A stretch of 64,000 nucleotides of DNA, from positions 5,210,001 through 5,274,000 of the forward strand of contig NW_024704742.1 of the NCBI RefSeq assembly GCF_018977255.1, read 5' to 3'. How positions within the stretch are numbered: position 1 is the first letter of the stretch; the number at the start of each line of letters is the position of its first letter. Position numbers and translations under genes: made by a program. The stretch comes from Callorhinchus milii (lineage: Eukaryota). The notes under the pieces were generated by a model, which was given only the letters and a program-made list of their open reading frames with translations, did not search any database and was not told the DNA's origin. Below, piece by piece: positions 670 to 64,000 of the stretch.

Positions 670-982
670 TAATAATAATAATCCTTTGCATTTGATATAG
701 CGCTTTTTACGTCTTCTAGACGTCTCAAAGCGCTTCACAAAATAAATACACTGTACAATATATGTATATTTGTGGGCAAAATGCGGCAGCCAATTGCGCA
801 CAGCAACGTCCCACAAACAGTCGTGGATTGAAGTGATCAATTTATTATTGTTTTTTTCTTGAGGGATTATTATCAGGCGTGTTGGAGTAAGGAAACTTGC
901 CCAAGGTTTCGCCCTGCCGGGAATCGAACACAGGTCTATCGCTTGCGAGGTGAGTGCTCTAGCCACTGAGCTACAGGACTCC
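670..982 (-). mobile_element. tRNA-derived SINE (Deu-domain body, L2-type tail), short variant
   Basis: Head GGAGTCCTGTAGCTCAGTGG..GTTCGATTCC (A and B boxes), core gctgtgcgcaattggctgccgc, tail (ATT)n. Confidence 0.9.
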
Positions 983-3419: not shown

Positions 3420-3741
3420 TAATAATAATAATAATCCTTGCATTTGATATAGCGCTTTTCACGTCGGGAGGACGTCCCAAAGCGCTTCACAGAATATACT
3501 GTAAAGTGAATTGACTGTATATTTGTGGGCGAACGCGGCAGTCAATTGCGCACAGCAGTGTCCCACAAACAGTCGTAGATTGAAAATGACCAATTTATTA
3601 TTGTTTTTTTGTTTTGGAGGGATTATTATTAGGCTCTGTGTGGAGTAAGGAAACTTGCCCAAGGTTTCGCCCTCTGCCTGGAATTGAACTCAGGTTTCTC
3701 ACTTGCAAAGCGAGTGCTCTAACCACTGAGCTACAGGACTC
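3420..3741 (-). mobile_element. tRNA-derived SINE, young short subfamily
   Basis: Nearly identical to 45071-45394. Confidence 0.92.
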
Positions 3742-3785: not shown

Positions 3786-3841
3786 GTTGTTTCGATCAGC
3801 AAGGTATCTGAGACTCGGAAACCCATCGCCATGATTAAGAA
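3786..3841 (-). mobile_element. 3'-terminal stub of the same unclassified element
   Basis: tcagcaaggtatctg..cggaaacccatcgccatgattaaga matches tcagccaggtgtctg..cggaaacccatcaccgtgattaaga at 16821-16868. Confidence 0.65.
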
Positions 3842-14879: not shown

Positions 14880-15260
14880 TAATAATAATAATAATAATAA
14901 TAATAATCCATGCATTTGATATAGCGCCTTATCAGGTCTTTGAGACGTCTCAAAGCGCTTCACAGAATGTACCGTAAAGTGAATTGACTGTGTATTTTGC
15001 TGGTGAAATGCGGCAGCCAATTGCATACAGCAGTGTCCCACAAACAGGCGTGGATTGAGTGACCGATTTTTTTTAAAGGGATTATTACCCCCGGAAAAGC
15101 GATCTGCCAATAGGCTAACAAACGGGTTCCTACTTACTGCTAGGTAAACAGAAGCACGTGGAGTAAGGAAACATGCTCAATGTTTTGCCCTGCCAGGGAA
15201 TTGAACTCGGGTCTTCTCGCTTGCAAGGCGAGTGCTCTAACCACTAAGCTACAGGACTCC
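14880..15260 (-). mobile_element. tRNA-derived SINE, long variant, full length
   Basis: Complete head through (ATT)n tail. Confidence 0.9.
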
Positions 15261-16810
15261 ACAATGATATGATCCTCGAGCTTATAATGTTGGGAAGGAA
15301 TAACATTTTTTAAAAAAATATGGAGAAAGGAAGACAACAGGGATTTTTGACAGATTTCCCATTTGTTTGGAAAGAATCCTACCTCGTGATCACCTCTGAA
15401 TCACTCAAATTAAATTAAATTAAATGAATCAACATTAAGCTTGAACTGGGGGGTGGTTAAAAGAGTAGCGCCTTGGAACGTCCTCCCGATGTGAAAGGCG
15501 CTATATAAATGTCATTTTGCTGTTGTAGAAGGAAGATGAGCAAAGGTACAGTCAATAGGATTTTAAGGCAGGTTTTGAAAGCAGAGAGGGACATTTTGAG
15601 ATGGAAAGATTTAGCTAAAGAATTCCAGACAGTGTTTCAAAGCACTTCACAGGATGTGCTGTGGTGTGGCGTGACTGTGTGTATTTTCTGGGTAAACACA
15701 GCAGTCAATTTGCACAGAGCAATGTGCCAATGGTGTGCATATTTTTGGATGAGTTTCTCATCTGTTCCTGATATTCTTTTAAATAATCCTTCCATATACG
15801 TCCACCTAACAAATTGACTTCGTAGCTTTTCGGTCAAAGAGCAGATAACTGAGAACTTCTGTTCTTAATTGATGGCCTTGAAAAATCAGCATGTTGTCAA
15901 CTTTAATCATTTCAAACACTGCTGTATTGCTCCTGAAGGAATCTTCTATAACAGTTCCCGTTCGAGACCAGCAGCCAGGCTCGCATTTTTATTTCGTATA
16001 AATCCTTTTGGTTTTGCAGCTTGACCACCGTCACATTCAGGTCTCTGTGCTGCGCAAAGACCCTTGGCTTAGAAGCAATCAAGGAATCTGCTCCCACATA
16101 TGTGTCATGTCCCACTGTTACAGGCTGTACAAGATTGCTTCAGGGATTCACTCACAAATTCTTCCTCCTTTCATCCGTTTGGTTCCTTCTTCTTCCAACT
16201 CAGCCAAGATAAAGGAATTGGCCTGCAACCAATTGTAGTCAAACATGAGCACATATCCGACCACTCTGTAGGGTATCTTTACCTTTCCGGGCCAGGTAGC
16301 CAAAATCACTGAACACAGCCAACTGAGCTTAAAATGCTTTCATTCTATCCACAACCAAAGCTTGCAGCTCGTTTTCAACACAGTGTTCGATATAACTACT
16401 CATCAGGGAACTGACATTCCTCTTAGATCCAAGAATTCTTTTAAAAAAAAATGTAACTCAGTCTTTACTAAGCAATTGGTCTCTTTTAAGAACAGCACAA
16501 GGGAAAAACGGTTTCCAAATGTAAGAATTTTCCAAAATGGTCTTAAATTTTAAGACAATAATATTGAGGCTAGTACCACGATAAATGACAAGCCTCAGGA
16601 GGATAGGAATTTCAGTAGACAAACAGTGTTGGAGTGAAGGAATCTGGTTGTATTTACATCTTTTTGCACCAAAACAGTGTGATATGCTTGGTTTTGAGTG
16701 TTCTGAGTGTTGGGTCAAAATCTGATTGCCTGACCATAGCCAATCGTGGCTGCGACCTCAGGTTAATAAGCACAAGGGGAATGCTGAAAAGTGGGACATG
16801 TCAACTGTAT

Positions 16811-17557
16811 TTTGTTTTGGTCAGCCAGGTGTCTGTCACACGCGGAAACCCATCACCGTGATTAAGAGTATCCCAAACGAGCTGAGATTTCCATGCACCC
16901 CGCCGACACATGGAAATCCCAGAGGTAGATTGTTGGATTGGAACGCACATTCTCTCCCTGGAGGGACACATCTGGTTTGCCTAATTCTGGAAAGTATTAG
17001 GCAATGGTTGGGTAAGAGCCAAGGTTTGGGGACCCCAGACTGTGCATTGGGGTAACTGTTGGAGTCTAACCAGCTAAAACCGCACAGCTTGCCATTGATA
17101 TCTCTGTTTGGCAAGCTTTCCCGCTGCTTGTCCAGCTAGGACCACTCTACCCATTTGGGCTTTGACTCGCAGGGTTCACAGGAGCTGAGTGGGATGACTC
17201 TCTGTCCCCAGTGACTGGTCTGCCCTTCCGGTCCTGCCGATGAGCCAGGCTGGCTGAGCTGTCACCAGCATTGCCCTGGAATACTGCGGACTCGCCTGGC
17301 TCAGGAACCGGACTAGAGACCATCACAGAGGGCTGGCTCGATTCCAACGTTGCATTGCCAAGCATGTTACCTTGTGGGTTTGTTCAGCTATCTGGTGGGC
17401 ACCTGTCTTCAGCATGGTGGGAGGCAGCACCAGCTGCTTAATCCAAGTCCTCATGTGAGGGGCCTTGGCAAGTAGATGTGCCCCCTGTGAAGCCACCTCC
17501 ACCTTCAGGGTGATCAGCGACAGGTTAGTGTAGGCTGGAGCCCTCCCTCCCTCCCTG
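16811..17557 (-). mobile_element. Unclassified structured non-coding retroposed element, TSD-delimited insertion
   Basis: Flanked by the exact 14-bp direct repeat CATGTCAACTGTAT (16797-16810 and 17558-17571). A-rich 3' end on the - strand. Homologous to 48240-48753 and 3786-3841. Confidence 0.8.
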
Positions 17558-18984
17558 CATGTCAACTGTATGTTAGTTTCAACAGGAGAAGGAACTGCAA
17601 AAATGTTTGTTCAGGGATTGCCAAAGAAGCATCGCCACTCCCATCTTCCTGAAACAATCCACGGCAAATCATCATGGCGAGGGTCACAATGCTAATAATG
17701 CCCATAGCAATAATGATCTCCCCAAACGCATTAATATTTCCGGTTCTTTACCTTGGCTGGACACAGATATCGTAAACAGACCAACCCAAAAAAGGTACAA
17801 AAACTGCACAGGAATTTTCCACGATAATGCAATTTTGGATTCTGCTGTGAGATGCAATAAAAAAAAGTACATCCACACCACTCATAAGCATGGCCTTTCT
17901 ATGCTCTTTTAAGCCGGGTGATTACTTGGGGATTGAGTGAATCAAACTCAGGGTCAAGCCAATCCATCACGTCTGAAACATCTTGTTCAGTCCAGAGCTT
18001 ATCGCATGCACTGAGCAACATGAAGAATTTCAGACTCTTGAGTACAGGACCAGCACCCTCATGGGTTGTGCTGCTGCAACATTTTAGCTCCGTTTTCCGA
18101 CGTGAAGGGCGCTTACACAAGTGTCATTTGTTGCCGTTGTTCATTTCAGAGTTTGCTGGACGTGGGCTGTGCACCCAATCTGTGCGAGCAAAAATGTGGC
18201 CGCAGCCCAACCCGTGAGGATGTCGGTCTTGTATTTAGAGTCTAAAATTCTTCATGTTGCTCAGTGCAGTGACGTTGAGGTTAGCATTTCTTCCTGCCAC
18301 TGGAAGGAATGCAACAACAGTTGACGGAGGTTGAACAGCACTGACTTATTTGGGTGGGGGTGGGGGGGGTTATTAAAACACAAGAGGCAAGATTCGTTTC
18401 AGCATTCCAAGTGTGAACGGTGTGATTCAAAAAAAACACTTAATCGCTTAATTGATGCCGTTAGCCTGTTCAACCCGGAAAACTGTAATTTTCTCCTGCT
18501 CTTGAGGTTTCAAGTGATCCTCACAAATTCCCTGTGGAGCTGTCAGCACCAAGCTCAGACTGTGTCTGTCTGTAATTGGTGCTGTGGAATTATTGCACTA
18601 TGTGATCCATGCAAAATATGTACAGAGTTTGCAGTTACAGCGGCCTTTATAAGATTATCTCTGGTGGGGTTCGGGCGTATTCAATTCAGCTTCTGAATTA
18701 CACCAACGTATTACACCAACTATTACTGGTCTCCGCTGATGTCTGTGCTTGTTATGGGAGCATGTTTCTTCTCAGGGAGCGGCAAGTTTCACAGGGCACA
18801 AAGTATGTTCACCTTCGATTAAAATAATTAGGGAAAGGCATTTTGTGCACCCACTTCTGTCAGGTTTCTTCTCTCAAGGTGTGATTCTCCTCGGATTAGT
18901 CTATGCAGTTTTTGTCTTCTGCTTCTGACTGTGGGCAAACCCAGAACCTTCACTTTTATAGCAGGGAAAAAACAACAGATTACG

Positions 18985-24016: not shown

Positions 24017-24339
24017 AATAATCATAATACTAATCCTTTCATTTGATATAGCGCTTTTCCCGTCTTCAAGACGTCTCGAAGCTCTTCACAGAATAACTGT
24101 AAAGTGAATTGACTGTATATTTTGTGGGCGAAATGCGGCAGCCAATTACGCACAGCAGTGTCCCCCACAAACAGTCATGGTTTGAATGACCAAATCATGT
24201 TTTTAATTTTATTTTTTTCTTGAAGGATTATTATCAGCCGTGTGGAGTAAAGAAACTTGCCCAAGGTTTCGCCTTGCCGGGAATCAAATCCAGGTCTCTC
24301 GCTTGCGAGGCGAGCGCTCTGACCACCGAACTACAGGAC
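24017..24339 (-). mobile_element. tRNA-derived SINE, short variant
   Basis: Head, core and tail present. Confidence 0.9.
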
Positions 24340-24801
24340 AATGGTTAGTTTTTGGTGAATTTTCTTTTGGATGAGTCAGGAACTATGACAGGGACACTGG
24401 GAGAACTCTACCTTTTCCAAATTCTACTGTTTCGATCACCCTGTAGTGAAGGTCCGTTCTTCAGATGAAACATTAAACCAAGGTCTCATCTGCCTGCTCA
24501 GGAGAATGTTAAAGGTTCCCATTCCACTTTTTGAAGAGAGTAGGAAGTATTTCCTGGTGTCCTGGCCACCAATCTCCCAATCACAATTACTCATTAATTT
24601 CATATTTTTTATAGAACATTGATATGCGTAAATTAGCTGCTGTACTCGTGTACGCGTACATAGTCCTTACAGTTTATAAAACAAACTTATGAAGCACCTT
24701 AAGCCATTCATGACATTAAAGTGGTATCTGATGTGTGAGGCTATCTCAAGCACAAAACTCCCGTGGTCTGTGAGCTGTCAAAGCCCAATCATTCACTGTA
24801 T

Positions 24802-27569: not shown

Positions 27570-27864
27570 AGTCCTGCAGCTCAGTGGTTAGAGCACTCGC
27601 CTCACAAGCGAGAGACCTGGGCTTGATTCCCGGCAGGGCGAAACCTTGGCCAAGTTTCCTTACTCCACACTCTTGACAATAATCCCTCAAGAAAGAAACA
27701 ACAACAATCCACGACTGCTTGTGGGACGCTGCTGTGCGCAATTGTCTGCCGCGTTTCGCCCACAAATATGCAGTCAATTCACTTTACAGCATATTCCGTG
27801 CAGCGCTTTGTGACGTCAAGAAGACGTGAAAAGGCGCCTTATCAAATGCAAGGATTATTATTAT
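27570..27864 (+). mobile_element. tRNA-derived SINE, short variant
   Basis: Head, core and tail present. Confidence 0.9.
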
Positions 27865-27937: not shown

Positions 27938-28570
27938 TGAGATCTCAGCTGGAGCAGCAGTTGGGTGGTGCTACAATTGGCTTCAGCACCTCAGAGACAG
28001 GCAGAGAGAAAAAAATTAACCAGAGTTTCTGCTCCTGATTGCTATTCAGTGACCCCCACGCTGGAAAATATATACGTGGAGTCCTGTAGCTCAGTGGTTG
28101 GAGCAATCGCCTCGTGAGACCTGGGTTCGATTCCCAGCAGGGCGAAATGTTGGGCAGGTTTCCTCATTCAACACGCCTCTGTTTATCTCGCAGTAAGTAG
28201 GAACCCGATTGTTAGTCGATTAGTGGATCACTTTTCTGGTGGTAATGTACCACCTCTTTTTAAAAAAAAATATTTTTTAAAAATGCGGTCACTCAATCCA
28301 CGACTGTTTGTGGGACGCTGCTCTGCGCAATTGGCTGCCACGTTTTGCCCACAAAATATAGTCAATTCAGTTCACAGTATATTCCGTGAAGCTCTTTGAG
28401 ACGTTTCGAAGACGTGATAAGGCGCTGTATCAAATGCAAAACATGCAAGGATTACTATGCGTGTGGACATCGGGTGATGACAGAGTTGAGCTGTTATTTC
28501 CCCCCCAACCTATTTCCCCCCCGTCAGTTTACACGTGAAAAGAATGATCATTGGACAAGATGAGAGGGTG
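27938..28570 (+). repeat. Ancient SINE-like interspersed repeat (third family), split by a young SINE
   Basis: gatctcagct..ctacaattggc.tcagc..aaaat..ccag..ctgatt..agtgacccc..gtgtggacatcggg. Related copies at about 26990-27290, 33730-33880, 44550-44720 and 46830-47110(-). Confidence 0.55.
28078..28457 (+). mobile_element. tRNA-derived SINE, long variant, nested in an older repeat
   Basis: Full length; interrupts 27938-28570. Confidence 0.9.
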
Positions 28571-33397: not shown

Positions 33398-33724
33398 GGA
33401 GTCCTGTAGCTCAGTGGTTAGAGCACTCGCTTTGCAAGCGAGAGACCTGAGTTCAATTCCAGACAGGGCGAAACCTTGGGCAAGTTTCCTTACTCCACAC
33501 GCCTAATAATAATCCCTCCAAAAAAAACAAAAATAATAATAAATTGGTCATTTTCAATCTACGACTGTTTGTGGGACATTGCTGTGCGCAATTGGCTGCC
33601 GCGTTTGCCCACAAATATACAGTCAATTCACTTTACAGTGTGTTCTGTGAAGCGCTTTGGGACGTCCTCCCGACGTGAAAAGCGCTATATCAAATGCAAG
33701 GATTATTATTATTATTATTATTAT
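33398..33724 (+). mobile_element. tRNA-derived SINE, young short subfamily
   Basis: Full length with a long clean (ATT)n tail; tail reads gggacgtcctcccgacgtg. Confidence 0.92.
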
Positions 33725-39120: not shown

Positions 39121-40920
39121 CTATTGTCACCAACTAGAGTAGAGCACATATCAGGAGTTGGGATATTCACTCTTTTTGCTATTAACATGAAACTGTGCCA
39201 CTTATTAGCATCCGATGGAGGCTTAGAAATGGAACAAGCAGCAGCACGGTTATAATTATTTTAATACCAACTGAGCAAGCAGTTCAGTTTGAATAAGCAG
39301 CGATATTAATCATGGCTCATACACACAGTCCCTTGGCTGGTGTTGTGCTCCCAGCAGCAGTGGGAAAGGTACTTTTGCAAGAACTTTTGTATGAACCACA
39401 AACAACTTACTCACAGGCAATTGCATTTGAGATTCAAACCCACTGCTGCAACATTTTATGATCGTTGAAAGACCAGTGGATTATTTATCAAGATTCTACT
39501 ATAGTACTTTTGACTTTTAATGCTATCTACTGATGCTCTTGCTGTACTTCAGATCCACTGCATGGTATTAAAGCTGTAGATCCTACATGCTCACAGAAAC
39601 TAACGGTGAATAAAATTTATATTCAAAATCAAGCATGTGGAATCTACATATGTGTGGTGTTACATCATTCAGGGACTGGCTGGGATTACATGGCAGTTTT
39701 CATGGAAGAAAATTACCAGGTAATCAAGAAATCCGGAAGTCTGTGATGCTGACTGCGTTACTCAAACTCAATCTATCATGCACATTGTATGTACAGTTAG
39801 CAGAAGGGCATCTCATCAGTCTTGGATTTAAAGATATGGATAAAGTTTAATGAATGGTTATCATTTCTAGGATTAATGATTCTGTCTCGAATGTGACACC
39901 ATATCGACCATCTCACTCAATGAGCTTCAAGAATGGCTGTTGTGCAAAATGGAAATCTCAGTGAGCGAAGTAGTGTGGTGGTGGTGTGTGTCTGACTGTC
40001 TGTCTGTGTGTGCGTGTGTGTGGGGGGGGGTAGCGTGGGGTGGGGGCAGGTGTACACAAACACCGTGTCAGACATCGTGAAATGATTCATTTTGCGTATT
40101 TTCTAGTGAGGTATATTAATTAATGATCTATCGGGATAAGAAACCTCTAAGAAATATTTCAGAATTGCCCACCCCTGCCCCATCACCCTTTCTATTGCTA
40201 ATAATTCATGATTTGAGTTCAGACCACTCGGGCTGTCTGTGAATATCTCTGAAGATCCAAGAAGCTGTACGGCCTATGCCTTGAATGATTTGTTAGGTTA
40301 TTATAATTGCTTGATTTGATAGGGCCTTATTAGGTCATCAAAACATCTCAAAGCACTTCATGGGATTGTAGGTGAACGCCTACAATTTCAAAGAGCAACA
40401 ACAACAACAACAACAACTTGCACTTATAGAGCACCCTCTACCCGGGGTAGCATCTTGGAGCACTTAAATGACCGGGAATGGAGATGAAAGGTATGAAGTC
40501 AAACAGGGAAAACACAAAAAGAACAAAACAACAAGGGGTCGTCTGACAGAGGTCAGAGAGACAGAGACAGCTCGGTGGAGGAAAACCTGTCAGGAGTCTC
40601 TGAAAACCTGTCAAGACTAATTATATCCCGACACCTGTCAAAAATCTTGTGAGGTACAGATTATATATATAATTTCTTATCTTTAGTAATTTAAGAACAG
40701 TGCCATGGGATCTTTATTTTGGGTGATACCTAAATGGCTGATTACTGGACAGTGCTGAGTACAAGCGGTTTATTGTTTTTGTCTACAAATTGATTAAATT
40801 CCATAGTAAAATCCTGTGAAGTTGTTTGAGGCACTACAGGGCACTGTAACAAAAGGAGGGATTATCATAGTACTCTCAATCTTGTACTATTAACAAAAAG
40901 CCTGGATACCTCAAATATTA

Positions 40921-41450
40921 AGACCCCCCGAGCCTCCCCCAGACATCCCCGAGCCTCCCCCAGACCCTCTGAGCCTGCCCCAGACCCCCCAAGCCCAGGC
41001 CAGAGCCCCCGAGCCTCCCCCAGACCCCCTGATCCTCCCCCAGACCCTCACAGCCTCCCCCAGACCCCCCAAGCCTCCCCCAGACCCCCCCAAGCCTCCC
41101 CCAGAACCCCCCAAGCCTCCCCCAGAACCCCCCAAGCCTCCCCCAGAATCCCCAAGCCTCCCTCAGACACCCCCCAAGTCTGCCCCAGACCCCCCCAAGC
41201 CTCCCTCAGAGCCCCCCAAGCCTCCCGCAGACCCCCAAGCCTTCCCCAGACCCCCCCCCCCAAGCCTCCCCCAGACCCTCTGAGCCTCCCTCAGACCCCC
41301 CCCAAATCCTCCAAACCTCCCCCAGAACCCCCCGAGCCTACCCTAGACCCCCCGAACCCCCCGAGAACCCCCGAGCCCTCCCCCAGATCCGCCGAGCCAC
41401 CCCCAGAACACCCCCACCCCCCCCCGCCCCACCACCCCCGAGCCTCCCCC
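40921..41450. repeat. C-rich minisatellite, unit of about 20-22 bp (agacccccc(g/a)agcctccccc)
   Basis: Directly visible degenerate tandem array. Confidence 0.95.
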
Positions 41451-41699
41451 AATAGTAGCCCAACATGATGCGTTGCCTCCGATAGGGTAACAGAGTGGCC
41501 AACGCCGAGTGGGGCAGTGCTTTTGAAACCGTGTGTGAAAAAAAAAGGGTCCGTCTCGAAAGCGTTGGGGGAGGGGAGGTGTGGGGGAGGGGAGGTGTGG
41601 GGGTGGGGGGAGATGGGGGGAGATGGGGGAAGGGGGGAGAGAAACTAATAATATTTTTTTTAAAAAATCAAGTCAGTAGCCCAAACCCCCTTTCCTCAG

Positions 41700-42150
41700 G
41701 CACAGTTAACGGCAGAAACCCGCCCAATTGGGCGTGAGAGACCGCCCAATCTGCGCGCATGGAGTGGTGGTGGTGGTTGTCGTGGGACGAGGCGTGGTGG
41801 TGGACTCGCGCACGCGCATATCAAGCCCCCCCCCCCCACACAACTGCTGTGGGTGGGGCCGACTTGCGCACGCGCATATCGCACCTGCTGCGGCGGGGTG
41901 GGTGGGTGGGGCCGACTCGCGCATGCGCTGCGGCGGCGGCCGTCGTCATCGTCGAATCGCGCATGCGCACATCCTCCCTCCCCCCACCAGCTGCTGCTGC
42001 TGACGCCGCCGCCGCCGTCGTCGCTCCGGGAGAAGTCGCTGCGCAGGCGCAGTTGCGTCAGCTGCTCCACCCTCCGGAGCGCGTGCGGGCGGCCGTGTCG
42101 CCCCCTCACCGCCCCCCCCCACACACACCGGCTGTCTGTCTGTCTGTCGT
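41700..42150 (+). promoter_or_regulatory. CpG-island promoter, probably of COPRS, with CCAAT boxes and five NRF1-type motifs
   Basis: This is the most CpG-dense stretch in the window. CCAAT at 41724 and 41746. GCGCA(C/T/G)GCGC motifs at about 41808, 41866, 41919, 41959 and 42041. It lies 9 kb upstream of the COPRS exons. Confidence 0.75.
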
Positions 42151-42227
42151 AAAGTGTTCGTAAAGTTTTTGCTCACAGTTACTTTGCTTGAATTGGAGGT
42201 TCGGCCCTGTGGCGTTTGCTCTCAAGT

Positions 42228-42838
42228 CCCCCCTCCCCCCCCACCCACCCCCCCCCACACACACCAACCCCCCCCCCACCCATCCCAACACCAACCCCTC
42301 CATCCCCACCCCCCCCCACACACACACCACCTCCCCCCACCAACACCAACCCCCCCCCATACACACCCCATCCCCACAACCCCCACCCAACACCAACCCC
42401 CCCCATCCCAACTCCCCCCCCCACACACACACCATCCCTCCCCCACACCAACACCAAACCCCCCACCCCCACCCCATCCCAACACCCATCCCCCCCCCAC
42501 ACACACCCCATCCCCACAACCCCCACCCAACACCAACCCCCCCATCCCATCCCCCCCCCACACACACACCCCATCCCCACCCAACACCAACCCCTCCCCA
42601 TCCCAACCACCCCCCACACACACCCCATCCCCCACCCACCCACCAACTCACCCCCCCACACACACACCCCATCCCCCACCCAACACCAACCCCCCCCGAC
42701 ACACACCCCATCCCCACCACCCAACACCAACCCCCACCCTTCACACACATCCCCACAACCCCCACCCAACACCAACCCCACACACCCACCCCATCCCCCA
42801 CTCACCCCACACCAACCCTCCCACTCCCCCCAACCCCT
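42228..42838. repeat. C/A-rich degenerate tandem repeat (cccacccaacaccaacccc / cacacacaccccatcccc)
   Basis: Directly visible; the + strand is almost devoid of G. Confidence 0.95.
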
Positions 42839-42855
42839 TCTCTCCCACCACTGTA

Positions 42856-42934
42856 ATGATGGACAAACGGTCTACCAGTACTAGTAGTGGTTGTCTCGCT
42901 GCATCTCTACAAGAGACGAGCACGACCGTTCCGA
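42856..42934 (+). CDS. Possible upstream coding exon of COPRS (MMDKRSTSTSSGCLAASLQETSTTVP)
   Basis: ATG at 42856 and donor CCGA|gtaagg (phase 1) would join in frame to exon 51034 (A+GA=Arg). No upstream AG acceptor and no recognisable homology. Confidence 0.25.
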
Positions 42935-43164
42935 GTAAGGTAAAATAGCCAATGTACTGTTAACCCACATGTTGTTTTGAAAGATGGTTTGGGCTTAGCT
43001 GACACCGTGGACCAGGCTCAAGACTATTTTCTTGTCTATTGGGTGGGGGGGGGGGTGATCATTTCACCTCAGATATTGCTGGAGTGTTAACTGCTTTGAG
43101 TTTAAAAAACAAAACAATTAAGATTTAATTGTATTACCTGAGCTTTGGGTTCTTTGAGACGTCC

Positions 43165-43890
43165 TTTCCCTGCAAGACCCCTTCCAATCCGGTTACTCAC
43201 GATACTGGGACGGCACTGATCGAAGTCACCAATGGCATTCTCTCTTATCTATGTGACCAGGGCTTCCACTATTCGTCCTTCTTGATCTCTCTATCATCTT
43301 CGACACAGCTGACCATTCAATTGTTGTCCACCGCCTCTCCTCTCAGCTCCACCTTCATGGTGCTTTCCTTGTCAACGGCTCCAATTTGTATATATCACTG
43401 GCTTCTCCCCTCAGCCCTGCACCGGCAGATCATACCCAGTGTTTAGGTTTCTGCCTCCACCCTTGTTTCTAGGACCAGTTGATTATCAGACCGATTGCTT
43501 GTCAGACATCAAGTCCTGGATGAGAGTTAACTTTCTCCAGTTGAATACCTATATGTCACAGGATCTCCTGATTGACTGCCATTTGTGACCTAAAGCCTTA
43601 CCAACCTGCCACTCCTTCCTCTGAACAGACACTGGCTTCTCGCCCCCTGCTTGTCCACCAGACCAACAGAAGTTGGGCCTTCACTCTTTTCTGGAACTCC
43701 ATCCATCGCTGTGCCTCACCCTTTCTTTTGCCTCCTTCAATGTCGGTCTCAAGATCTTCCTCCTTGACTGTTCCTTCTGTCATCTTCCCACCTCCACCCT
43801 CTTGGCTTCCACCCCTTCTAAAACCAACTCCCAGCTCGAAGCAAACTCTCAACTGTCCAGCCCCTTGGGAACGGATGTCCTCCCAAGGAC
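43165..43890 (+). mobile_element. Degenerate L2 fragments
   Basis: Remnants of L2 RT motifs (TALIEVTN.IL; gacatcaagtcctggatg) and an L2-like 3' UTR. Confidence 0.65.
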
Positions 43891-45070
43891 AACCTGTACT
43901 CCAGGGAACTTGGCGAGATGAAAATGGGGATGTGTAAAGCACTAACAAGCAGTCAGTCAACACTAGAGTTATTGACAGTAAAAACAAGCAAATATAGTTG
44001 CTGTATTAAAGAAGGGTAGTTGGTTTGACTTTAATAATTGAAATTCTATTGGGATCAATTCTTAGAGGGAAAGTGTGAATATAACTTAATAAATGACTGT
44101 TAATGTAGATTCAGAAAGTGCAAGTCTAGCCTGCTCATACTTTTTGAAGATTGACAATTGTTAATAATTAATTATTAACGACTGCATTTTGATATAGTGC
44201 CTTATCGAATCATCAACTTTTCAAAGTGCTTTATAGGATTTTACTATAAAGTATAGACTGAATTTCTAGATGAATGTGGCAACCAATTTGCAGTGACCTA
44301 CAAACAGCCATGGAATAAATCACTGATTTTATCTGATGGATTGTTGGTCAGGACACTGTGAGAAACTCCCTTAGAATATTTATGCATATTACATAGAATT
44401 ATATGACACAGAAACAATACAAATCTACATGTATACAGTATCATGCCTTTCACGCAGGAGGGTGTCCCAAGGCTCTTAACAAATTAGCACTTTGACACGT
44501 CACAAAGACATGATAAGGCGCTACATCAAATGCAAGGTTTATGATTATTATTGGCACCTGAGCTGGGATTAATTGGAATTGCAGTGTTAATCAAAAACTT
44601 CGTCCATCGGGGTTACACTACCACAATAGGGCCACACTGTGCCATCCAGAATTCGAAGTTCACTGGGGGTCTGAGGCTAAGTGAATGTATGAACAGTCAG
44701 TGTATGGACATAGAGTGTTCTCCTGTTCTGCTTACGTCATTCGTATAGAAACTCACTGGACCAGGCTATTAGTTTATTGCAGAAACACGTCCTCTCCTAA
44801 TCCTTGTGCTTGATAACGAGTAACATTTATCACTGCCATTAATTCAGATAATTCTTGTACTTCCCGCCACAGATCTCAGTTAATGAAAATAATGGCTGCT
44901 CTCAAAGTGAAAAATTAAACATTAAATCAGTTTGCGAGAAAGGTGGAAAAATGTGGAGGCCACAGTTAGGTATGTAATACAAGACGCTACTCGGGTGAAG
45001 AATGCGATATAAATGTAAATTGTTGTTGTATCATTTGTAACCCAATTTTGGTTTGTTATGTGTTATGTGT

Positions 45071-45394
45071 GGAGTCCTGTAGCTCAGTGGTTAGAGCACT
45101 CGCTTTGCAAGTGAGAGACCTGAGTTCAATTCCAGGCAGAGGGCGAAACCTTGGGCAAGTTTCCTTACTCCACACAGAGCCTAATAATAATCCCTCCAAA
45201 ACAAAGCAATAATAAATTGGTCATTTTCAATCTACGACTGTTTGTGGGACATTGCTGTGCGCAATTGGCTGCCGCGTTCGCCCACAAATATACAGTCAAT
45301 TCACTTTACAGTCTATTCTGTGAAGCGCTTTGGGACGTCCTCCCGACGTGAAAAGCGCTATATCAAATGCAAGGATTATTATTATTATTATTAT
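45071..45394 (+). mobile_element. tRNA-derived SINE, young short subfamily
   Basis: Full length; shares diagnostic ggcagagggcg and cacacagagcc with 3420-3741. Confidence 0.92.
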
Positions 45395-45579: not shown

Positions 45580-45893
45580 AGTCCGGTAGCTCAGTGGTTA
45601 GAGCACTCGTCTCGCAAGCGAGAGACCTGGGTTTGATTCCCGGCAAGGCGAAACCTTGGGCAAGTTTCCTTACTCCACACGCCTGATAATAATCCCTCAA
45701 GAAAAAAAGTAATAATTTGGTCCTTCATCCACGACTGTTTGTGTGGACGCTGCTATGTGCAATTGGCTGCCGCGTTTCGCCCACAAAATATATAGTCAAT
45801 TCACTTTACAGTATATTCTGTGAAGCGCTTTGCGACGTCTCGAAGACGTGAAAAGCGCTATATCAAATGCAAGGATTGTTATTATTATTATTA
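45580..45893 (+). mobile_element. tRNA-derived SINE, short variant
   Basis: Head, core and tail present. Confidence 0.9.
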
Positions 45894-46815: not shown

Positions 46816-48239
46816 TGTACAATCCGGTTACCTACCCTGGTAACTGTTGTTCATGTAGGACCGTGGGTAGTGAGCGTCGGCTGACCACTTGGTTATAGAG
46901 GCTGTTGCCTGACCTCTCTCCACCCAGTTGGCACACAACCAGAAGAGGGTGCAGAATAGACCAGGCAATCTAGCTGATTTTACCCTCCCTAACCCTGGGG
47001 ACACCAGGGTCAATTTAACCTCCCTCCTTACGCAGCCCCAATTGATCCCCAGGAAACTCAGCACCAACTTGGATTCAAACCGACAAGCTTCGGGTCCGTG
47101 AGCTGTAGCTCTGTGCGCGACACGTTCGCAGCTGATCTATACCACGTTTCCTCGTCGTGAGCTTCAGACAGAAGAGTCCAAGTTATACAGCTGACAGTAC
47201 AAAAAAACAGCTGTTACTGGCTTGTAACCCCCAATGTTTAGATGAAAATAATGCATAAGAAGCAGTTGCAATATGCTGGACCGCTGGTGCATGTTGTTAT
47301 GTAATTGGAGGCTTCCCCACAAGGCGGCAGTAGATTAATGCGTCTATTTGTCTGCATGAACCAGAACCTTGTAAGTTGAGGCTACGTGACTAATGGTGCA
47401 CACGTTGTGTATGTGGAGCAAGTTACATCATCTGGACTTTAATAAAGTGTCGGAGGTGCTGTCTTTCCAGTGAGGCCCCCGCGTGCATGTTCCTGTGAAC
47501 CTGACACTCATCGAAAAGAGAAGAGAGTTTCTTCCGACGTCTTGGCCAACAATTTCTCGAATAAAGTTAACCGTTCGCGCCACGGCTATCTGTAGGACGT
47601 TGCAGGGCCCAAATTGGCTGCCACGTTTGCCCGCAAAACACGCAGTCGCTCCACTTTATAATATATCCTCGTGAAGAGGTTGGCTCATCCGCCTGATACG
47701 AAAGGCACTGACTGCAGTGAGCGCAAGGGTTATTTTATTTTTTTCAATTATTATTAATGCTCACCAGAATTAGGTGAGCAGCGTGCACCCATCCTCCCGA
47801 AGTGAAAGGCGCTATACAATGCAATTTGTTTTTGTTGCACCCTTCCTTGAAATGCGCATTCCAGTCCAGACGCAGAAATGTCCATGTGTAGGTAAGCACA
47901 AAATGTGGAACTCTCAGTCTGACTTGGATACTCTTAAGCACAGTGATGGATTTCAGCACATCAAATACCTGAGGGGACAAAAGAAACAAAACAGAGGAAG
48001 TGTAAAGTCGTGCAGGGCCAACCGTGAAAACATATTTGTCACCATCATCTATAAATATTCCCCTTTTTTAGCCTTTAGAGTTCTCCTGTACGTTCTTCTT
48101 TCTGGTTGATCCTTAGCGATACCTGGATGCTGTGTTCTGTGACAGCAATAATAATAATAATCCTTGCATTTGATATTTGATAAACTTGTTGGATATCAAC
48201 TGAAGAACTAGGGAGTAACCTCTTTGGAACCGAAATAGC

Positions 48240-48753
48240 TCCAAGGTGACATGCTTGGATTTGTCAGAATCGCGCCAGCCCTCTGTGGCCGTCATGGCAA
48301 TTCAGTTCCTGATCCAGGCGAGTCCGCAGTATTGGACTTGGAAGGGCAGACCAGTCACTGGGGGCAGGGAATCCCCTCAGTCAGCTCCTGTTAACCTGCA
48401 AGCCAAAGCCCATAAAGTGTAGGGTGGTCCCAGCTAGAGAAGCAGTGGGAAAGCTTGCTCGACAGTGCTATTGAAGGCAAGCTACGCCGCAGTTTTAGCT
48501 GGTTAGACTCCAGCAGTTACCCCAATACACATTCTGGGATCACCAAGCCTCGTCAACCTGCGCCTAATACTTTCCGGATTTAGGTAAGCAAGATGCATCC
48601 TCAAGGAAGGGACATTTATTGGTATGTCATTCCATTAAGCATCTCTGAAATTACCATGTATTGGTGGGATACATGGAACTCTGTTTGGTTTGGATACCCT
48701 TAAGCAGGGTGATGTGTTTCTGCATGTGTCAAACACCTGGCTGATCAAAAAAT
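48240..48753 (+). mobile_element. Second, diverged copy of the unclassified structured element
   Basis: Shares blocks with the reverse complement of 16811-17375 (ccaggcgagtccgcagtatt, ggaagggcagaccagtcactgggg, gttttagctggttagactcca, acacctggctga) and ends in an A run. Confidence 0.8.
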
Positions 48754-58445: not shown

Positions 58446-58818
58446 GGAAACCTGTAGCCCAGTTGTTAGAGCACTCGCCTCGCAAGTGAGAGAACTGGGT
58501 TCGATTCCCGGGCAGGGCAAAATGTTGGGCGAGTTTCCTTACTCCGCACACCTCTGTTTATCTAGCAGTAAATAGGAACCCAATCCGTCAATTGGCGGAT
58601 CACTTTTCCGGGCGTAATAATACCTTCAAAATAATAATAATAATAATAAATTGGTCACTTCAATCCACCACTGTTTGTGGGACGCTGCTGTGCGCAATTG
58701 TCTGCCGCATTTCGCCCACAAAATATACAGTCAATTCACTTTACAGTATACTCTGTGAAGGGCTTTGAGACGTCTCGAAGACGTGATAAGGCGCTATATC
58801 AAATGCAAGGAATATTAT
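58446..58818 (+). mobile_element. tRNA-derived SINE, long variant
   Basis: Head, middle, core and tail. Confidence 0.9.
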
Positions 58819-59800: not shown

Positions 59801-60952
59801 GGTGAGCAGAGAGTTGGTGTTGTCTGGCCGAGACATGATAAGTGGACATCGTATGGAAGAACTTTTATTTTAGGTAAAATCCAACATTGTGATTTTTGTT
59901 TTAGGCACTGATTGTGTCCCAAAAATCTGTAACTCCTTTTCCTCACATAGTTTGATTCCTTCACGCACTATGGGGTGAAGTGTGATGTGATGATTATCAC
60001 TGTAATATTCTCACGTCATTGAAAATTCCACTCTTGTTGAGCCTAAATCAATATCTGCTGAACTCTCCCCTGACTTTTCAATGCAATCTGTTGGCTCGAA
60101 TAATATGCATTCAATTCACTTGTATACCCTTGTGAAGCACATGTGAGACGTCTCGAAGACGTGATAAGGCCCTATATCAAATGCAAGGATTATTATTCAA
60201 AACAGATGAACTTTTGCCCAAAATAGGGTGCCTGAAATATTTGACACTCTAAGGCAATTAGTCTGTCTGCTCATATCTGGATGATTAAGTAGTGAAAGCT
60301 GGATCTTGGTTTCTAAGAATGATTGCAGTGTGCCCAAGTAGTGAGATTCGCGTCTCATTCCTTTCATAGTTCACACATTTCATGCTGAGCTGTGTTGCTC
60401 ACTGGGAAGCTCACAGGAAGTTCTAGGCTCCTGCTATCCATCTCGTGTGGTCTCAAACCTGTGCTTATTAGATAACCAACGAGTAACTATGCTTGGAGAG
60501 AGGGAAGCAGGGTCTGCTTGGGGCTGAGCTGGCTCCAAGGTGTTTTGCAATGGAATTTCGGAATCGAATCGACCTTCTGCGGCTGTCTCAGCAGTCTGTT
60601 TCCTGAGCGAGTCAGTACTGATGTCGTACTCCAGGGCACAACTGATGACAGACCAGTCAGCGTATCAGTATGTGTTACGTCCCACGTTGTGGATGTTTTT
60701 TCTCAGTTGTTTGCCACTGGTGGAAGTAAAAGAAGACGGCTCCTTATTTTAACTTGAGAAGGATTTTAAAGTCAAGGTAAGGAAAGAGCTGAGTTGAGAA
60801 ATGAAACGTTTTCCCCAACTTCTGCCCATTCCAAGTGCCATTCCAAACCTGTCACCCGGAACTCCATTCTGCAGTCCCTCCGCCTCGCCCCCTCCCTTGC
60901 CTCCTTCAAGACCCATCTCAAGAACCATCTCTTCGACCGTGCCTTCGCTCAC

Positions 60953-63687: not shown

Positions 63688-63772
63688 TGCATGAGAAATA
63701 GGGATTTTTAGGGGCATTATGACTTGTGAAGATAAAACATAGCTGTCCCAAAAAACCCTAATTTTTCTTGCT
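63688..63772 (-). ncRNA. MIR365: mir-365 precursor (mir-365b/mir-365-2-like); mature 3p at 63698-63719
   Basis: The minus strand reads ACAGCAAGAAAAATTAGGGTTTTTTGGGACAGCTATGTTTTATCTTCACAAGTCA-TAATGCCCCTAAAAATCCCTAT-TTCTCATGC. The 3p arm is 21/22 identical to canonical miR-365-3p (UAAUGCCCCUAAAAAUCCUUAU), the arms pair, and the flanks resemble human MIR365B. Confidence 0.92.
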
Positions 63773-64000
63773 GTTGTTTAAGCACACGGGGCTTTCCAAG
63801 AAATTAAAGCTTTTCCAATACGAGAAATAGTAAATGCCTCCATCTGCATTGAGCGCCAGGAACCAGAGCTGAAAACTGTAATGAGCTCAATACACCCGGA
63901 ACTAATCAGCATTTTCTCCATAAGCTCCAGGGCTACACTAAACTTAGGATAACACAGCCTAGAGTGGGTTACATAAGAGCGACACATGAAACAGTTCAAA

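What the first reader, a model, noticed from the sequence alone, without database searches (positions are those of the whole stretch)
16797..17571. Unclassified 747-bp retroposed RNA with exact 14-bp TSD and structure conserved across diverged copies
Seen: the insert 16811-17557 (- strand) lies between exact repeats CATGTCAACTGTAT and ends in an A-rich tail. It has no tRNA, 5S or 7SL head, no recognisable RT ORF, and does not resemble the L2, CR1 or Deu-SINE families around it. In sense orientation it is packed with hairpins: AGCTTGCCA..TGGCAAGCT, GCCTAAT..ATTAGGC, GATTTCCATG..CATGGAAATC, CAGTATT..AATGCTG and AGCCA..TGGCT. A diverged second copy (48240-48753, +) keeps several of these stems, and a 3' stub lies at 3786-3841. 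Established: a long TSD, an A-tail and 5' truncation are hallmarks of target-primed reverse transcription. Inference: this is a non-autonomous retroelement built from a structured RNA (a LINE UTR-derived bipartite element, a captured ncRNA, or an IRES/ribozyme-like domain), possibly not yet described.
Basis: partly seen in the sequence, partly recalled or inferred. Interest (0 to 1): 0.8.

Follow-up and report, generated by a model that had tools for sequence, protein, structure and literature searches.

The report
Truncated LINE copy with hairpin-rich tail
The 747-base insert is an ordinary dead, shortened copy of a jumping gene (a LINE retrotransposon) that occurs in thousands of copies in this vertebrate genome; it is not a new kind of structured-RNA element.

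Summary
There is an exact 14-bp target-site duplication, a 9-nt A-rich tail, and three perfect hairpin stems of at least 9 bp (expected 0.14; 1 of 1000 shuffles reach 3). A second copy and a 56-nt stub are also present.

The interpretation does not hold. The 5' 175 nt of the insert encode 57 residues of the C-terminal part of a LINE ORF2 (E 2e-15 against a longer copy). Longer copies in the same genome carry a reverse transcriptase (Pfam RVT_1, 6e-13). The remaining 564 nt are that LINE's 3'UTR, which has at least 13,914 first-look matches genome-wide.

The window copy is 5'-truncated. It privately lacks an in-frame 81-nt piece and a piece of about 310 nt bounded by an AGCTGAA microhomology.

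The hairpins belong to the family consensus. Across 43 copies there is no covariation: 90.9% of cells are paired, against 90.9% in shuffles. Rfam finds nothing.

The LINE clade could not be named, because Dfam and Repbase are not available here.

One side observation is that most copies begin at the start of the 3'UTR, which hints at a discrete unit of about 620 nt.

Interest is low.

The parts
16797..16810 (.). Target-site duplication, the copy next to the element's 3' tail
   Evidence: Exact 14-mer present twice in the window; 0 of 100 shuffles gave 2 or more matches
16811..16819 (-). Short A-rich tail (AAAACAAAA in sense)
   Evidence: Read directly. Tails of 3-10 A, often with one C, are seen in most of the 43 aligned copies
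16811..17374 (-). 3'UTR of the LINE (564 nt including the tail)
   Evidence: Matches copies genome-wide at 82-86% identity, with 13,914 first-look candidates. It is 90.7% identical to the 43-copy consensus, the same as the family mean
16882..16922 (-). Hairpin: a 10-bp perfect core; in the family consensus about 15 bp with three G-U pairs in the sense strand
   Evidence: pair counts (helix 7, 91.7% of cells paired)
16977..17004 (-). Hairpin with a 9-bp perfect stem
   Evidence: helices 5 and 6
17086..17117 (-). Hairpin with a 9-bp perfect stem and a 14-nt loop
   Evidence: helices 3 and 4
17383..17389 (-). Deletion junction 2. AGCTGAA occurs once here but twice, about 310 nt apart, in longer copies. 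The missing piece holds the end of ORF2, its stop codon and the first 45 nt or so of the 3'UTR
   Evidence: Alignments with L036, L064, L065 and L016. DNA contigs of runs X3 and X4 bridge it without differences
17384..17556 (-). Remnant of the C-terminal part of ORF2 (57 codons, downstream of the RT domain)
   Evidence: BLASTP against the open frame of copy L064 gives E 2e-15. That frame aligns to residues 918-1066 of the APE+RT protein P0001 at E 2e-6. At DNA level it is 84-89% identical to 40 scored copies
17424..17425 (-). Deletion junction 1: an in-frame 81-nt piece (27 codons), present in all six aligned longer copies, is missing
   Evidence: None of the 40 scored relatives is contiguous across it
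17558..17571 (.). Target-site duplication, the copy at the truncated 5' end
   Evidence: A contig of run X4 bridges this junction
48240..48753 (+). Older, more decayed copy of the same 3'UTR, with an internal gap of about 50 nt
   Evidence: 75% identical to the insert, 83.3% to the consensus, 77-80% to genome copies
3786..3841 (-). 56-nt stub of the extreme 3' end of the same family
   Evidence: 82% identity to insert nt 691-746

Best explanation
The insert is a 5'-truncated, internally deleted, dead copy of an abundant LINE (a non-LTR retrotransposon of the type with an apurinic-like endonuclease plus reverse transcriptase).

Shown: in sense orientation it consists of 57 codons of the post-RT part of ORF2, then the LINE's hairpin-rich 3'UTR of about 570 nt, then a short A-rich tail, all between 14-bp target-site duplications.

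Inferred mechanism: the LINE's endonuclease nicked the target. Its reverse transcriptase primed on the nick from the 3' end of the LINE RNA and copied the 3'UTR and a little of ORF2 before stopping. A staggered second nick gave the 14-bp duplication.

The two internal gaps are 81 nt (in frame) and about 310 nt (between two AGCTGAA repeats). They arose either by template slippage of the reverse transcriptase or by later deletion.

The hairpins are features of the family's ancestral 3'UTR and were inherited by every copy. They may have served RNA recognition or stability in the active element, but nothing shows selection on them in the copies.
For: Retroposition hallmarks:
- Exact TSD and A-rich tail.
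- Four of 29 other copies also have flanking repeats of at least 9 nt placed exactly at the tail, against 0 of 29 in control windows.

LINE identity:
- Insert nt 6-133 and 134-174 match the end of ORF2 in longer copies, and nt 184-747 match their 3'UTR in the same order.
- The 57-aa frame aligns at E 2e-15.
- Copy L063 carries RT motifs, with Pfam RVT_1 at 6e-13.
- The best outside relatives are proteins of 1250-1560 aa with Exo_endo_phos plus RVT_1, 31-40% identical.

Copy-number bias towards the 3' end, measured as first-look candidates:
- 13,914 for the whole insert and 765 for its ORF2 part.
- With equal 200-nt queries: 1,818 for the ORF2 end, 6,165 for the UTR start and 4,087 for the UTR end.

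Age: 90.7% identity to the consensus, equal to the family mean.

Not an assembly artefact: independent DNA contigs bridge both insertion junctions and junction 2, and the flanks are at single-copy depth.
Against: - No copy with an intact ORF2 was found, and no endonuclease domain was shown in this genome's own copies. That domain comes only from outside relatives that are 31-40% identical.
- The LINE clade and family name are undetermined. Similarity to solved L1 ORF2p and R2 proteins is weak (E about 1e-4).
- The perfect 14-bp TSD is somewhat unexpected for a copy about 9% from its consensus. The TSD has no CpG, and the finding was picked because of it.
- Whether the two gaps arose during or after insertion cannot be told.
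- All copy samples are the best-scoring hits, not random samples.
Confidence: 0.9

Rival explanations
1. The family's real mobile unit is a discrete non-autonomous element of about 620 nt, made of the LINE's 3'UTR. The window copy is a chimera. Reverse transcription started on such a unit (or on the UTR), then jumped at the AGCTGAA microhomology onto ORF2 sequence of a LINE RNA.
For: - 25 of 29 best-scoring copies have their 5' ends within about 75 nt at the start of the 3'UTR; only 4 extend further.
- Three of the 4 TSD-delimited copies start within about 6 nt of each other.
- Candidate counts are flat across the UTR (6,165 and 4,087) but drop to 1,818 just upstream.
- Junction 2 has a 7-nt microhomology.
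Against: - The UTR head is contiguous with the end of ORF2 in long copies, so a slip within one LINE RNA, or a later deletion, explains junction 2 more simply.
- BLAST end points in the variable G-run are imprecise.
- The copies examined are top-scoring hits, and first-look counts are rough lower bounds.
- A hot spot where the reverse transcriptase stalls at the G-rich hairpin of the UTR head would give the same pattern.
Confidence: 0.06
2. One reading: a novel non-autonomous retroposon derived from a structured cellular or captured RNA (ncRNA, IRES-like or ribozyme-like), with its structure kept by selection.
For: - Hairpins exceed chance.
- The consensus UTR folds better than shuffles: sense z = -3.98, with 0 of 100 shuffles as good.
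- Several stems use G-U pairs that exist only in the sense strand.
- There is no pol III head.
Against: - There is an ORF2 remnant at the 5' end, and the body equals the 3'UTR of RT-bearing copies.
- No covariation: every measure equals its shuffled control. RNAalifold over the whole alignment gives -3.29 kcal/mol with a covariation term of -0.01.
- The antisense strand also beats shuffles (z = -3.35).
- No Rfam family matches at E <= 1.
Confidence: 0.02
3. A processed pseudogene of a host mRNA 3' end, or a hairpin-rich DNA transposon or MITE.
For: TSD and A-rich tail (for the pseudogene); inverted repeats (for the MITE).
Against: - There are thousands of dispersed copies at 75-86% identity.
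- There are no terminal inverted repeats; the inverted repeats are internal and local.
- TSD length varies from 9 to 14 nt among copies.
- ORF2 homology.
Confidence: 0.01

Closest known systems
5'-truncated insertions of endonuclease-bearing LINEs made by target-primed reverse transcription (textbook example: L1)
   Same: Variable-length TSD (14 bp here, 9-11 bp in other copies), A-rich 3' end, 5' truncation, copy number biased to the 3' end, and microhomology at an internal deletion.
   Different: The RT is only weakly similar to solved human L1 ORF2p (E about 1e-4 over 64 residues). The tail is very short (3-10 A, often AAAACA-like). The 3'UTR is long (about 600 nt) and hairpin-rich. The clade was not determined.
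'Stringent-type' LINEs whose ORF2 protein recognises a stem-loop in the 3' tail (zebrafish LINEs in PMC4176376; context in PMC5135761; for both I saw only the search listing and the start of the abstract)
   Same: Conserved hairpins in the 3'UTR, including a 5-bp stem directly before the tail in the consensus (helix 8, 91.4% of cells paired).
   Different: Recognition was not tested here, and no covariation was found. From recall, those LINEs end in short tandem repeats and not in oligo(A).
LINE-like repeat consensuses of the elephant shark survey genome (PMC1845163, section 'Repetitive Elements', passages read: three LINE-like and two SINE-like consensuses were deposited)
   Same: Earlier notes of this scan call this genome chimaera or elephant-shark-like. 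An abundant LINE family such as this one may be among those repeats, or in Repbase/Dfam.
   Different: The paper's major LINE is CR1-like and shares its 3' end with the major tRNA-derived SINE. Here none of the 11 tRNA-like hits in the window is followed by this LINE's tail. The deposited sequences could not be compared with these tools.
LINE-derived non-autonomous elements that keep only part of the parent, such as UTR-only or ORF-less derivatives (recalled, no call)
   Same: At family level most copies start at the head of the 3'UTR.
   Different: The window copy itself carries ORF2 sequence. A separate promoter or transcript for a UTR-only unit is not shown.

Membership tests
LINE (non-LTR retrotransposon), 5'-truncated copy | Flanking target-site duplication of variable length | tested here: met
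   14-bp exact TSD. TSDs of 9-11 nt in 4 of 29 other copies against 0 of 29 controls
LINE (non-LTR retrotransposon), 5'-truncated copy | Colinear homology to longer elements that encode a reverse transcriptase | tested here: met
   (order of the segments). RVT_1 at 6e-13 in L063. The 57-aa frame aligns at E 2e-15
LINE (non-LTR retrotransposon), 5'-truncated copy | Copy number biased to the 3' end | tested here: met
   First-look candidates: 1,818 (ORF2 end), 6,165 (UTR start) and 4,087 (UTR end) for equal 200-nt queries. These are rough lower bounds
LINE (non-LTR retrotransposon), 5'-truncated copy | Endonuclease domain (APE type) in the same element | tested here: inconclusive
   Seen only in outside relatives P0001-P0007 that are 31-40% identical. 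The upstream parts of this genome's copies (L063-L065) were too decayed or interrupted
L1 clade | RT groups with L1 in a phylogeny; ORF1 of the L1 type | not testable with these tools
   Only weak, equal similarity to solved L1 ORF2p and R2 (E about 5e-5 to 1e-4). No named reference set was available. Protein searches gave no clade names
SINE | Head derived from tRNA, 5S or 7SL, with a pol III promoter | tested here: not met
   No Rfam hit in 16790-17580 at gathering score or at E <= 1
Structured RNA family (Rfam) or structure under selection | Match to a covariance model, or compensatory changes across copies | tested here: not met
   (no match); 46 pairs and 43 copies; paired cells 90.9% against shuffled 90.9 +/- 0.2; covariation score 0.093 against 0.093; covariation term -0.01
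Stringent-type LINE with a 3' stem-loop recognised by its RT | The stem-loop near the tail is required for retrotransposition | not testable with these tools
   Hairpins exist in the consensus. Their function needs an assay
Processed pseudogene | Single or few copies derived from a host gene with introns | tested here: not met
   Thousands of dispersed matches

The most novel reading that the evidence does not exclude
The LINE family behind this copy spreads mainly as a discrete unit of about 620 nt consisting of its own 3'UTR. That unit is either a UTR-only non-autonomous derivative or a subgenomic transcript. Its sense-strand hairpins, which include G-U pairs, would be the module that the LINE's reverse transcriptase recognises. 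This would make it a 'stringent' recognition system in an element that ends in oligo(A). The RT's nearest relatives found here are unnamed proteins from metagenomic and Logan assemblies plus chytrid and brown-alga records, not the familiar vertebrate L1, L2 or CR1 groups.
Probability: 0.15. Interest if true: 0.4.

Novelty: already known. Interest (0 to 1): 0.1.

Why it matters
It matters little. The finding is an ordinary dead LINE fragment, and resolving it removes a false lead for a new class of structured-RNA retroposon.

It is also a useful caution. Hairpins shared by diverged repeat copies are inherited from the common ancestor and say nothing about selection unless compensatory changes are shown.

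The only points of modest interest are at family level:
- an abundant LINE with a long, hairpin-rich 3'UTR;
- a sharp pile-up of 5' ends at the start of the UTR;
- an RT clade that these tools could not name.

Tried and rejected
- **RNAalifold on the whole 641-column alignment** gave almost no consensus structure (-3.29 kcal/mol, 18 pairs) and did not even recover the local hairpins. I therefore tested the named hairpins directly.
- **RNA evidence:** no RNA holder was listed. Runs X1 and X2 are only guessed to be RNA, and they cover repeat words but not the unique flanks. This says nothing about expression.
- **Depth figures** are not copy numbers and were not used as such.
- **Naming the clade failed:**
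  - two protein searches gave mostly unnamed proteins from Logan, ENA and JGI, plus Batrachochytrium and Ectocarpus records;
  - the ESM Atlas gave only generic RVT_1 plus Exo_endo_phos clusters;
  - the PDB gave weak, equal hits to L1 ORF2p and R2;
  - Pfam found nothing on the short ORF2 pieces.
- **Earlier findings:** the look-up by sequence found nothing, and the look-up by words found nothing.
- **Splicing as the cause of the two gaps** was considered and rejected. The 81-nt piece does not begin with GT or end with AG at the observed junction, and the second gap is bounded by a direct repeat.
- **The tRNA-like SINEs of the window as partners of this LINE** was rejected. No tail match lies downstream of any of the 11 tRNA-like hits.
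The alignment therefore rests on loci L002-L064.
- **Dfam and Repbase** could not be searched.
- **Supplements and the GenBank repeat records named in PMC1845163** were not seen.
Full report
**Observation**

The motif CATGTCAACTGTAT occurs exactly twice in the 64-kb window, at 16797-16810 and 17558-17571. None of 100 shuffles gave two matches. Between the two lies a 747-bp insert whose sense strand is the minus strand. It ends in AAAACAAAA directly against the duplication.

- 16882-16895 with 16909-16922;
- 16977-16988 with 16993-17004;
- 17086-17094 with 17109-17117.

That is three perfect stems of at least 9 bp with loops of 10-14 nt. The mean in 1000 dinucleotide shuffles is 0.143, and one shuffle reached three.

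A second copy (48240-48753, +; 75% identity) and a 56-nt stub of the 3' end (3787-3840, -; 82%) are present. Rfam finds no family in the insert at gathering score or at E <= 1.

**What it is**

The window lies in an assembly of about 991 Mb. The window also contains a mir-365 precursor and many tRNA-like SINE heads, so this is a vertebrate genome. Earlier notes of this scan call it chimaera or elephant-shark-like; I did not test that.

Searching the genome with the insert gave two results:
- Insert nt 169/184-747 match a very abundant repeat: 13,914 first-look candidates, of which the 40 scored are 82-86% identical.
- Insert nt 6-133 match a rarer set: 765 candidates, 84-89% identical.

In longer copies (L036, L037, L041, L063, L064, L065 and others) the pieces lie in the same order but with extra sequence between them: nt 6-133, then 81 nt, then nt 134-174, then about 310 nt, then nt 184-747.

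Sense frame 2 of the insert reads 57 residues. These align to an open frame of copy L064 at E 2e-15, with a 26-residue gap where the 81 nt are missing. That frame in turn aligns to residues 918-1066 of protein P0001, just downstream of its RT domain, at E 2e-6.

Copy L063 carries a 204-residue open stretch with classic RT motifs, and Pfam RVT_1 scores 6e-13. Its best outside relatives are proteins of 1250-1560 residues with an Exo_endo_phos endonuclease domain and RVT_1, 31-40% identical.

The insert is therefore a LINE fragment: the tail end of ORF2 followed by the 3'UTR. In long copies the start of the 3'UTR is contiguous with the end of ORF2.

**The particular copy**

Its 5' end lies inside ORF2, directly against the TSD. 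That is a 5' truncation. It lacks two internal pieces:
- an in-frame 81-nt piece (junction at 17425|17424), which is present in all six aligned long copies;
- a piece of about 310 nt that held the last part of ORF2, the stop codon and the first 45 nt or so of the 3'UTR.

This second gap is bounded in long copies by two AGCTGA(A) repeats, of which the insert keeps one (17383-17389).

None of the 40 scored relatives is contiguous across junction 1. None of the 40 is contiguous across junction 2. The gaps are therefore private to this copy, and '747 bp' is not a family unit length.

Splicing does not explain them, because there is no GT..AG at the observed junctions. Either the reverse transcriptase slipped on its template or the pieces were deleted later. 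I cannot tell which.

DNA contigs of two runs bridge both insertion junctions and junction 2 without differences. The flanks are at single-copy depth, so this is not an assembly artefact. Those runs may come from the individual that was assembled.

The copy is 90.7% identical to the consensus of 43 aligned 3'UTR copies. That equals the mean of the other 41 (90.7%, range 81.8-93.6). The second window copy is older, at 83.3%.

**The hairpins**

I aligned 43 copies of the 3'UTR. They were chosen as follows:
- the two window copies;
- plus 41 of the 44 genome copies that covered at least 480 of 564 nt.

I dropped L040 and L041 for large internal deletions, and L060 because it looks like a duplicate of L058. 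All of these are best-scoring hits, not a random sample.

The hairpins are present in the family consensus. One of them is about 15 bp long with three G-U pairs that exist only in the sense strand.

The consensus folds better than shuffles:
- sense: MFE -239.7 kcal/mol, z = -3.98, 0 of 100 shuffles as good;
- antisense: z = -3.35, 0 of 100 shuffles as good.

The window copy alone gives z = -2.12, with 3 of 100 shuffles as good.

There is no covariation on the 46 pairs of six hairpins:

| Measure | Observed | Shuffled | Shuffles reaching the observed value |
|---|---|---|---|
| Cells paired | 90.9% | 90.9 +/- 0.2% | 213 of 500 |
| Pairs with changes on both sides | 7 | 5.7 | 165 of 500 |
| Covariation score | 0.093 | 0.093 | 240 of 500 |

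RNAalifold on the full alignment gives -3.29 kcal/mol with a covariation term of -0.01.

Much of the variation is CpG decay; the consensus has 16 CpG sites. The copies have therefore simply inherited the stems and are losing them at random. 'Structure conserved across diverged copies' reflects common descent.

Whether the stems mattered to the active element cannot be decided here. For LINEs of the 'stringent' type, the ORF2 protein is reported to recognise a stem-loop in the 3' tail (PMC4176376 and PMC5135761; I saw only the listings and the start of the abstracts).

**Family features**

Four of 29 other copies have exact flanking repeats of 9-11 nt placed at the tail, against 0 of 29 in control windows. 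Target-primed insertion is thus a property of the whole family.

With equal 200-nt queries, first-look candidates number 1,818 for the end of ORF2, 6,165 for the first 200 nt of the UTR and 4,087 for the last 200 nt. These counts are rough lower bounds.

Of the 29 best copies, 25 have their 5' ends within about 75 nt at the head of the UTR and only 4 extend further. Three of the four TSD-delimited copies start within about 6 nt of each other.

This points to one of two things:
- a stall site for the reverse transcriptase at the G-rich hairpin that opens the UTR; or
- a discrete UTR-only unit of about 620 nt.

I could not decide between them. BLAST end points in the G-run are imprecise, and further loci could not be fetched. 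The window copy itself, however, contains ORF2 sequence.

**Comparison with what is known**

It works like any endonuclease-bearing LINE. The clade stays open:
- Similarity to solved L1 ORF2p and R2 proteins is weak and equal (E about 5e-5 to 1e-4).
- The protein searches and the ESM Atlas returned no clade names.
- Dfam and Repbase are not available here.

The elephant-shark survey paper reports three LINE-like and two SINE-like consensus repeats. Its major LINE is CR1-like and shares its tail with the major tRNA-derived SINE (PMC1845163, section 'Repetitive Elements', passages read). The present LINE does not share its tail with the tRNA-like SINEs of this window. It may or may not be one of the other described repeats.

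**Verdict**

This is an ordinary 5'-truncated, internally deleted LINE copy.
- Confidence: 0.9
- Interest: 0.1

Noticed in passing
Family level: loci L002-L030, positions about 40-50 nt upstream of the match starts (start of the LINE 3'UTR): 5' ends of copies pile up at the head of the 3'UTR. Of 29 copies, 25 start within about 75 nt there, and three of the four TSD-delimited copies start within about 6 nt of each other. Candidate counts are flat across the UTR but drop about 3.4-fold just upstream. The cause is either a reverse-transcriptase stall site at a G-rich hairpin or a discrete UTR-only unit of about 620 nt.
   Followed up: partly
window 63688-63773 (-): mir-365 microRNA precursor (Rfam RF00659, 71.8 bits, E 2.3e-13).
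   Followed up: no
window 909-980, 3674-3736, 15187-15257, 24269-24340, 27570-27641, 28080-28145, 33400-33471, 45077-45139, 45580-45651, 58451-58517: Ten tRNA-like Rfam hits, probably heads of tRNA-derived SINEs. None is followed by the tail of the LINE studied here, so their partner LINE is a different family.
   Followed up: partly
window 47906-47957 (+) and 60541-60661 (+): Two further small fragments resemble the insert: nt 665-716 at 79%, and nt 194-309 at 69%. The first lies about 330 bp upstream of the second copy and may be another decayed piece of the family.
   Followed up: no
window 40001-44000: A GC-rich block (GC 0.55-0.56 against about 0.42 elsewhere) with strong negative GC skew (-0.48 at 42001-44000).
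   Followed up: no
L058 (G000:C3:56756403-56759714) and L060 (G000:C1:32429228-32432539): Two loci on different contigs give identical match coordinates, scores and identities in three searches. This suggests a segmental duplication that contains a copy of the LINE.
   Followed up: no
L065 3821-4240 (+): About 2 kb upstream of the LINE copy in this locus there is an open stretch with a zf-RVT match (Pfam PF13966, E 1.5e-06). It probably belongs to a different retroelement.
   Followed up: no
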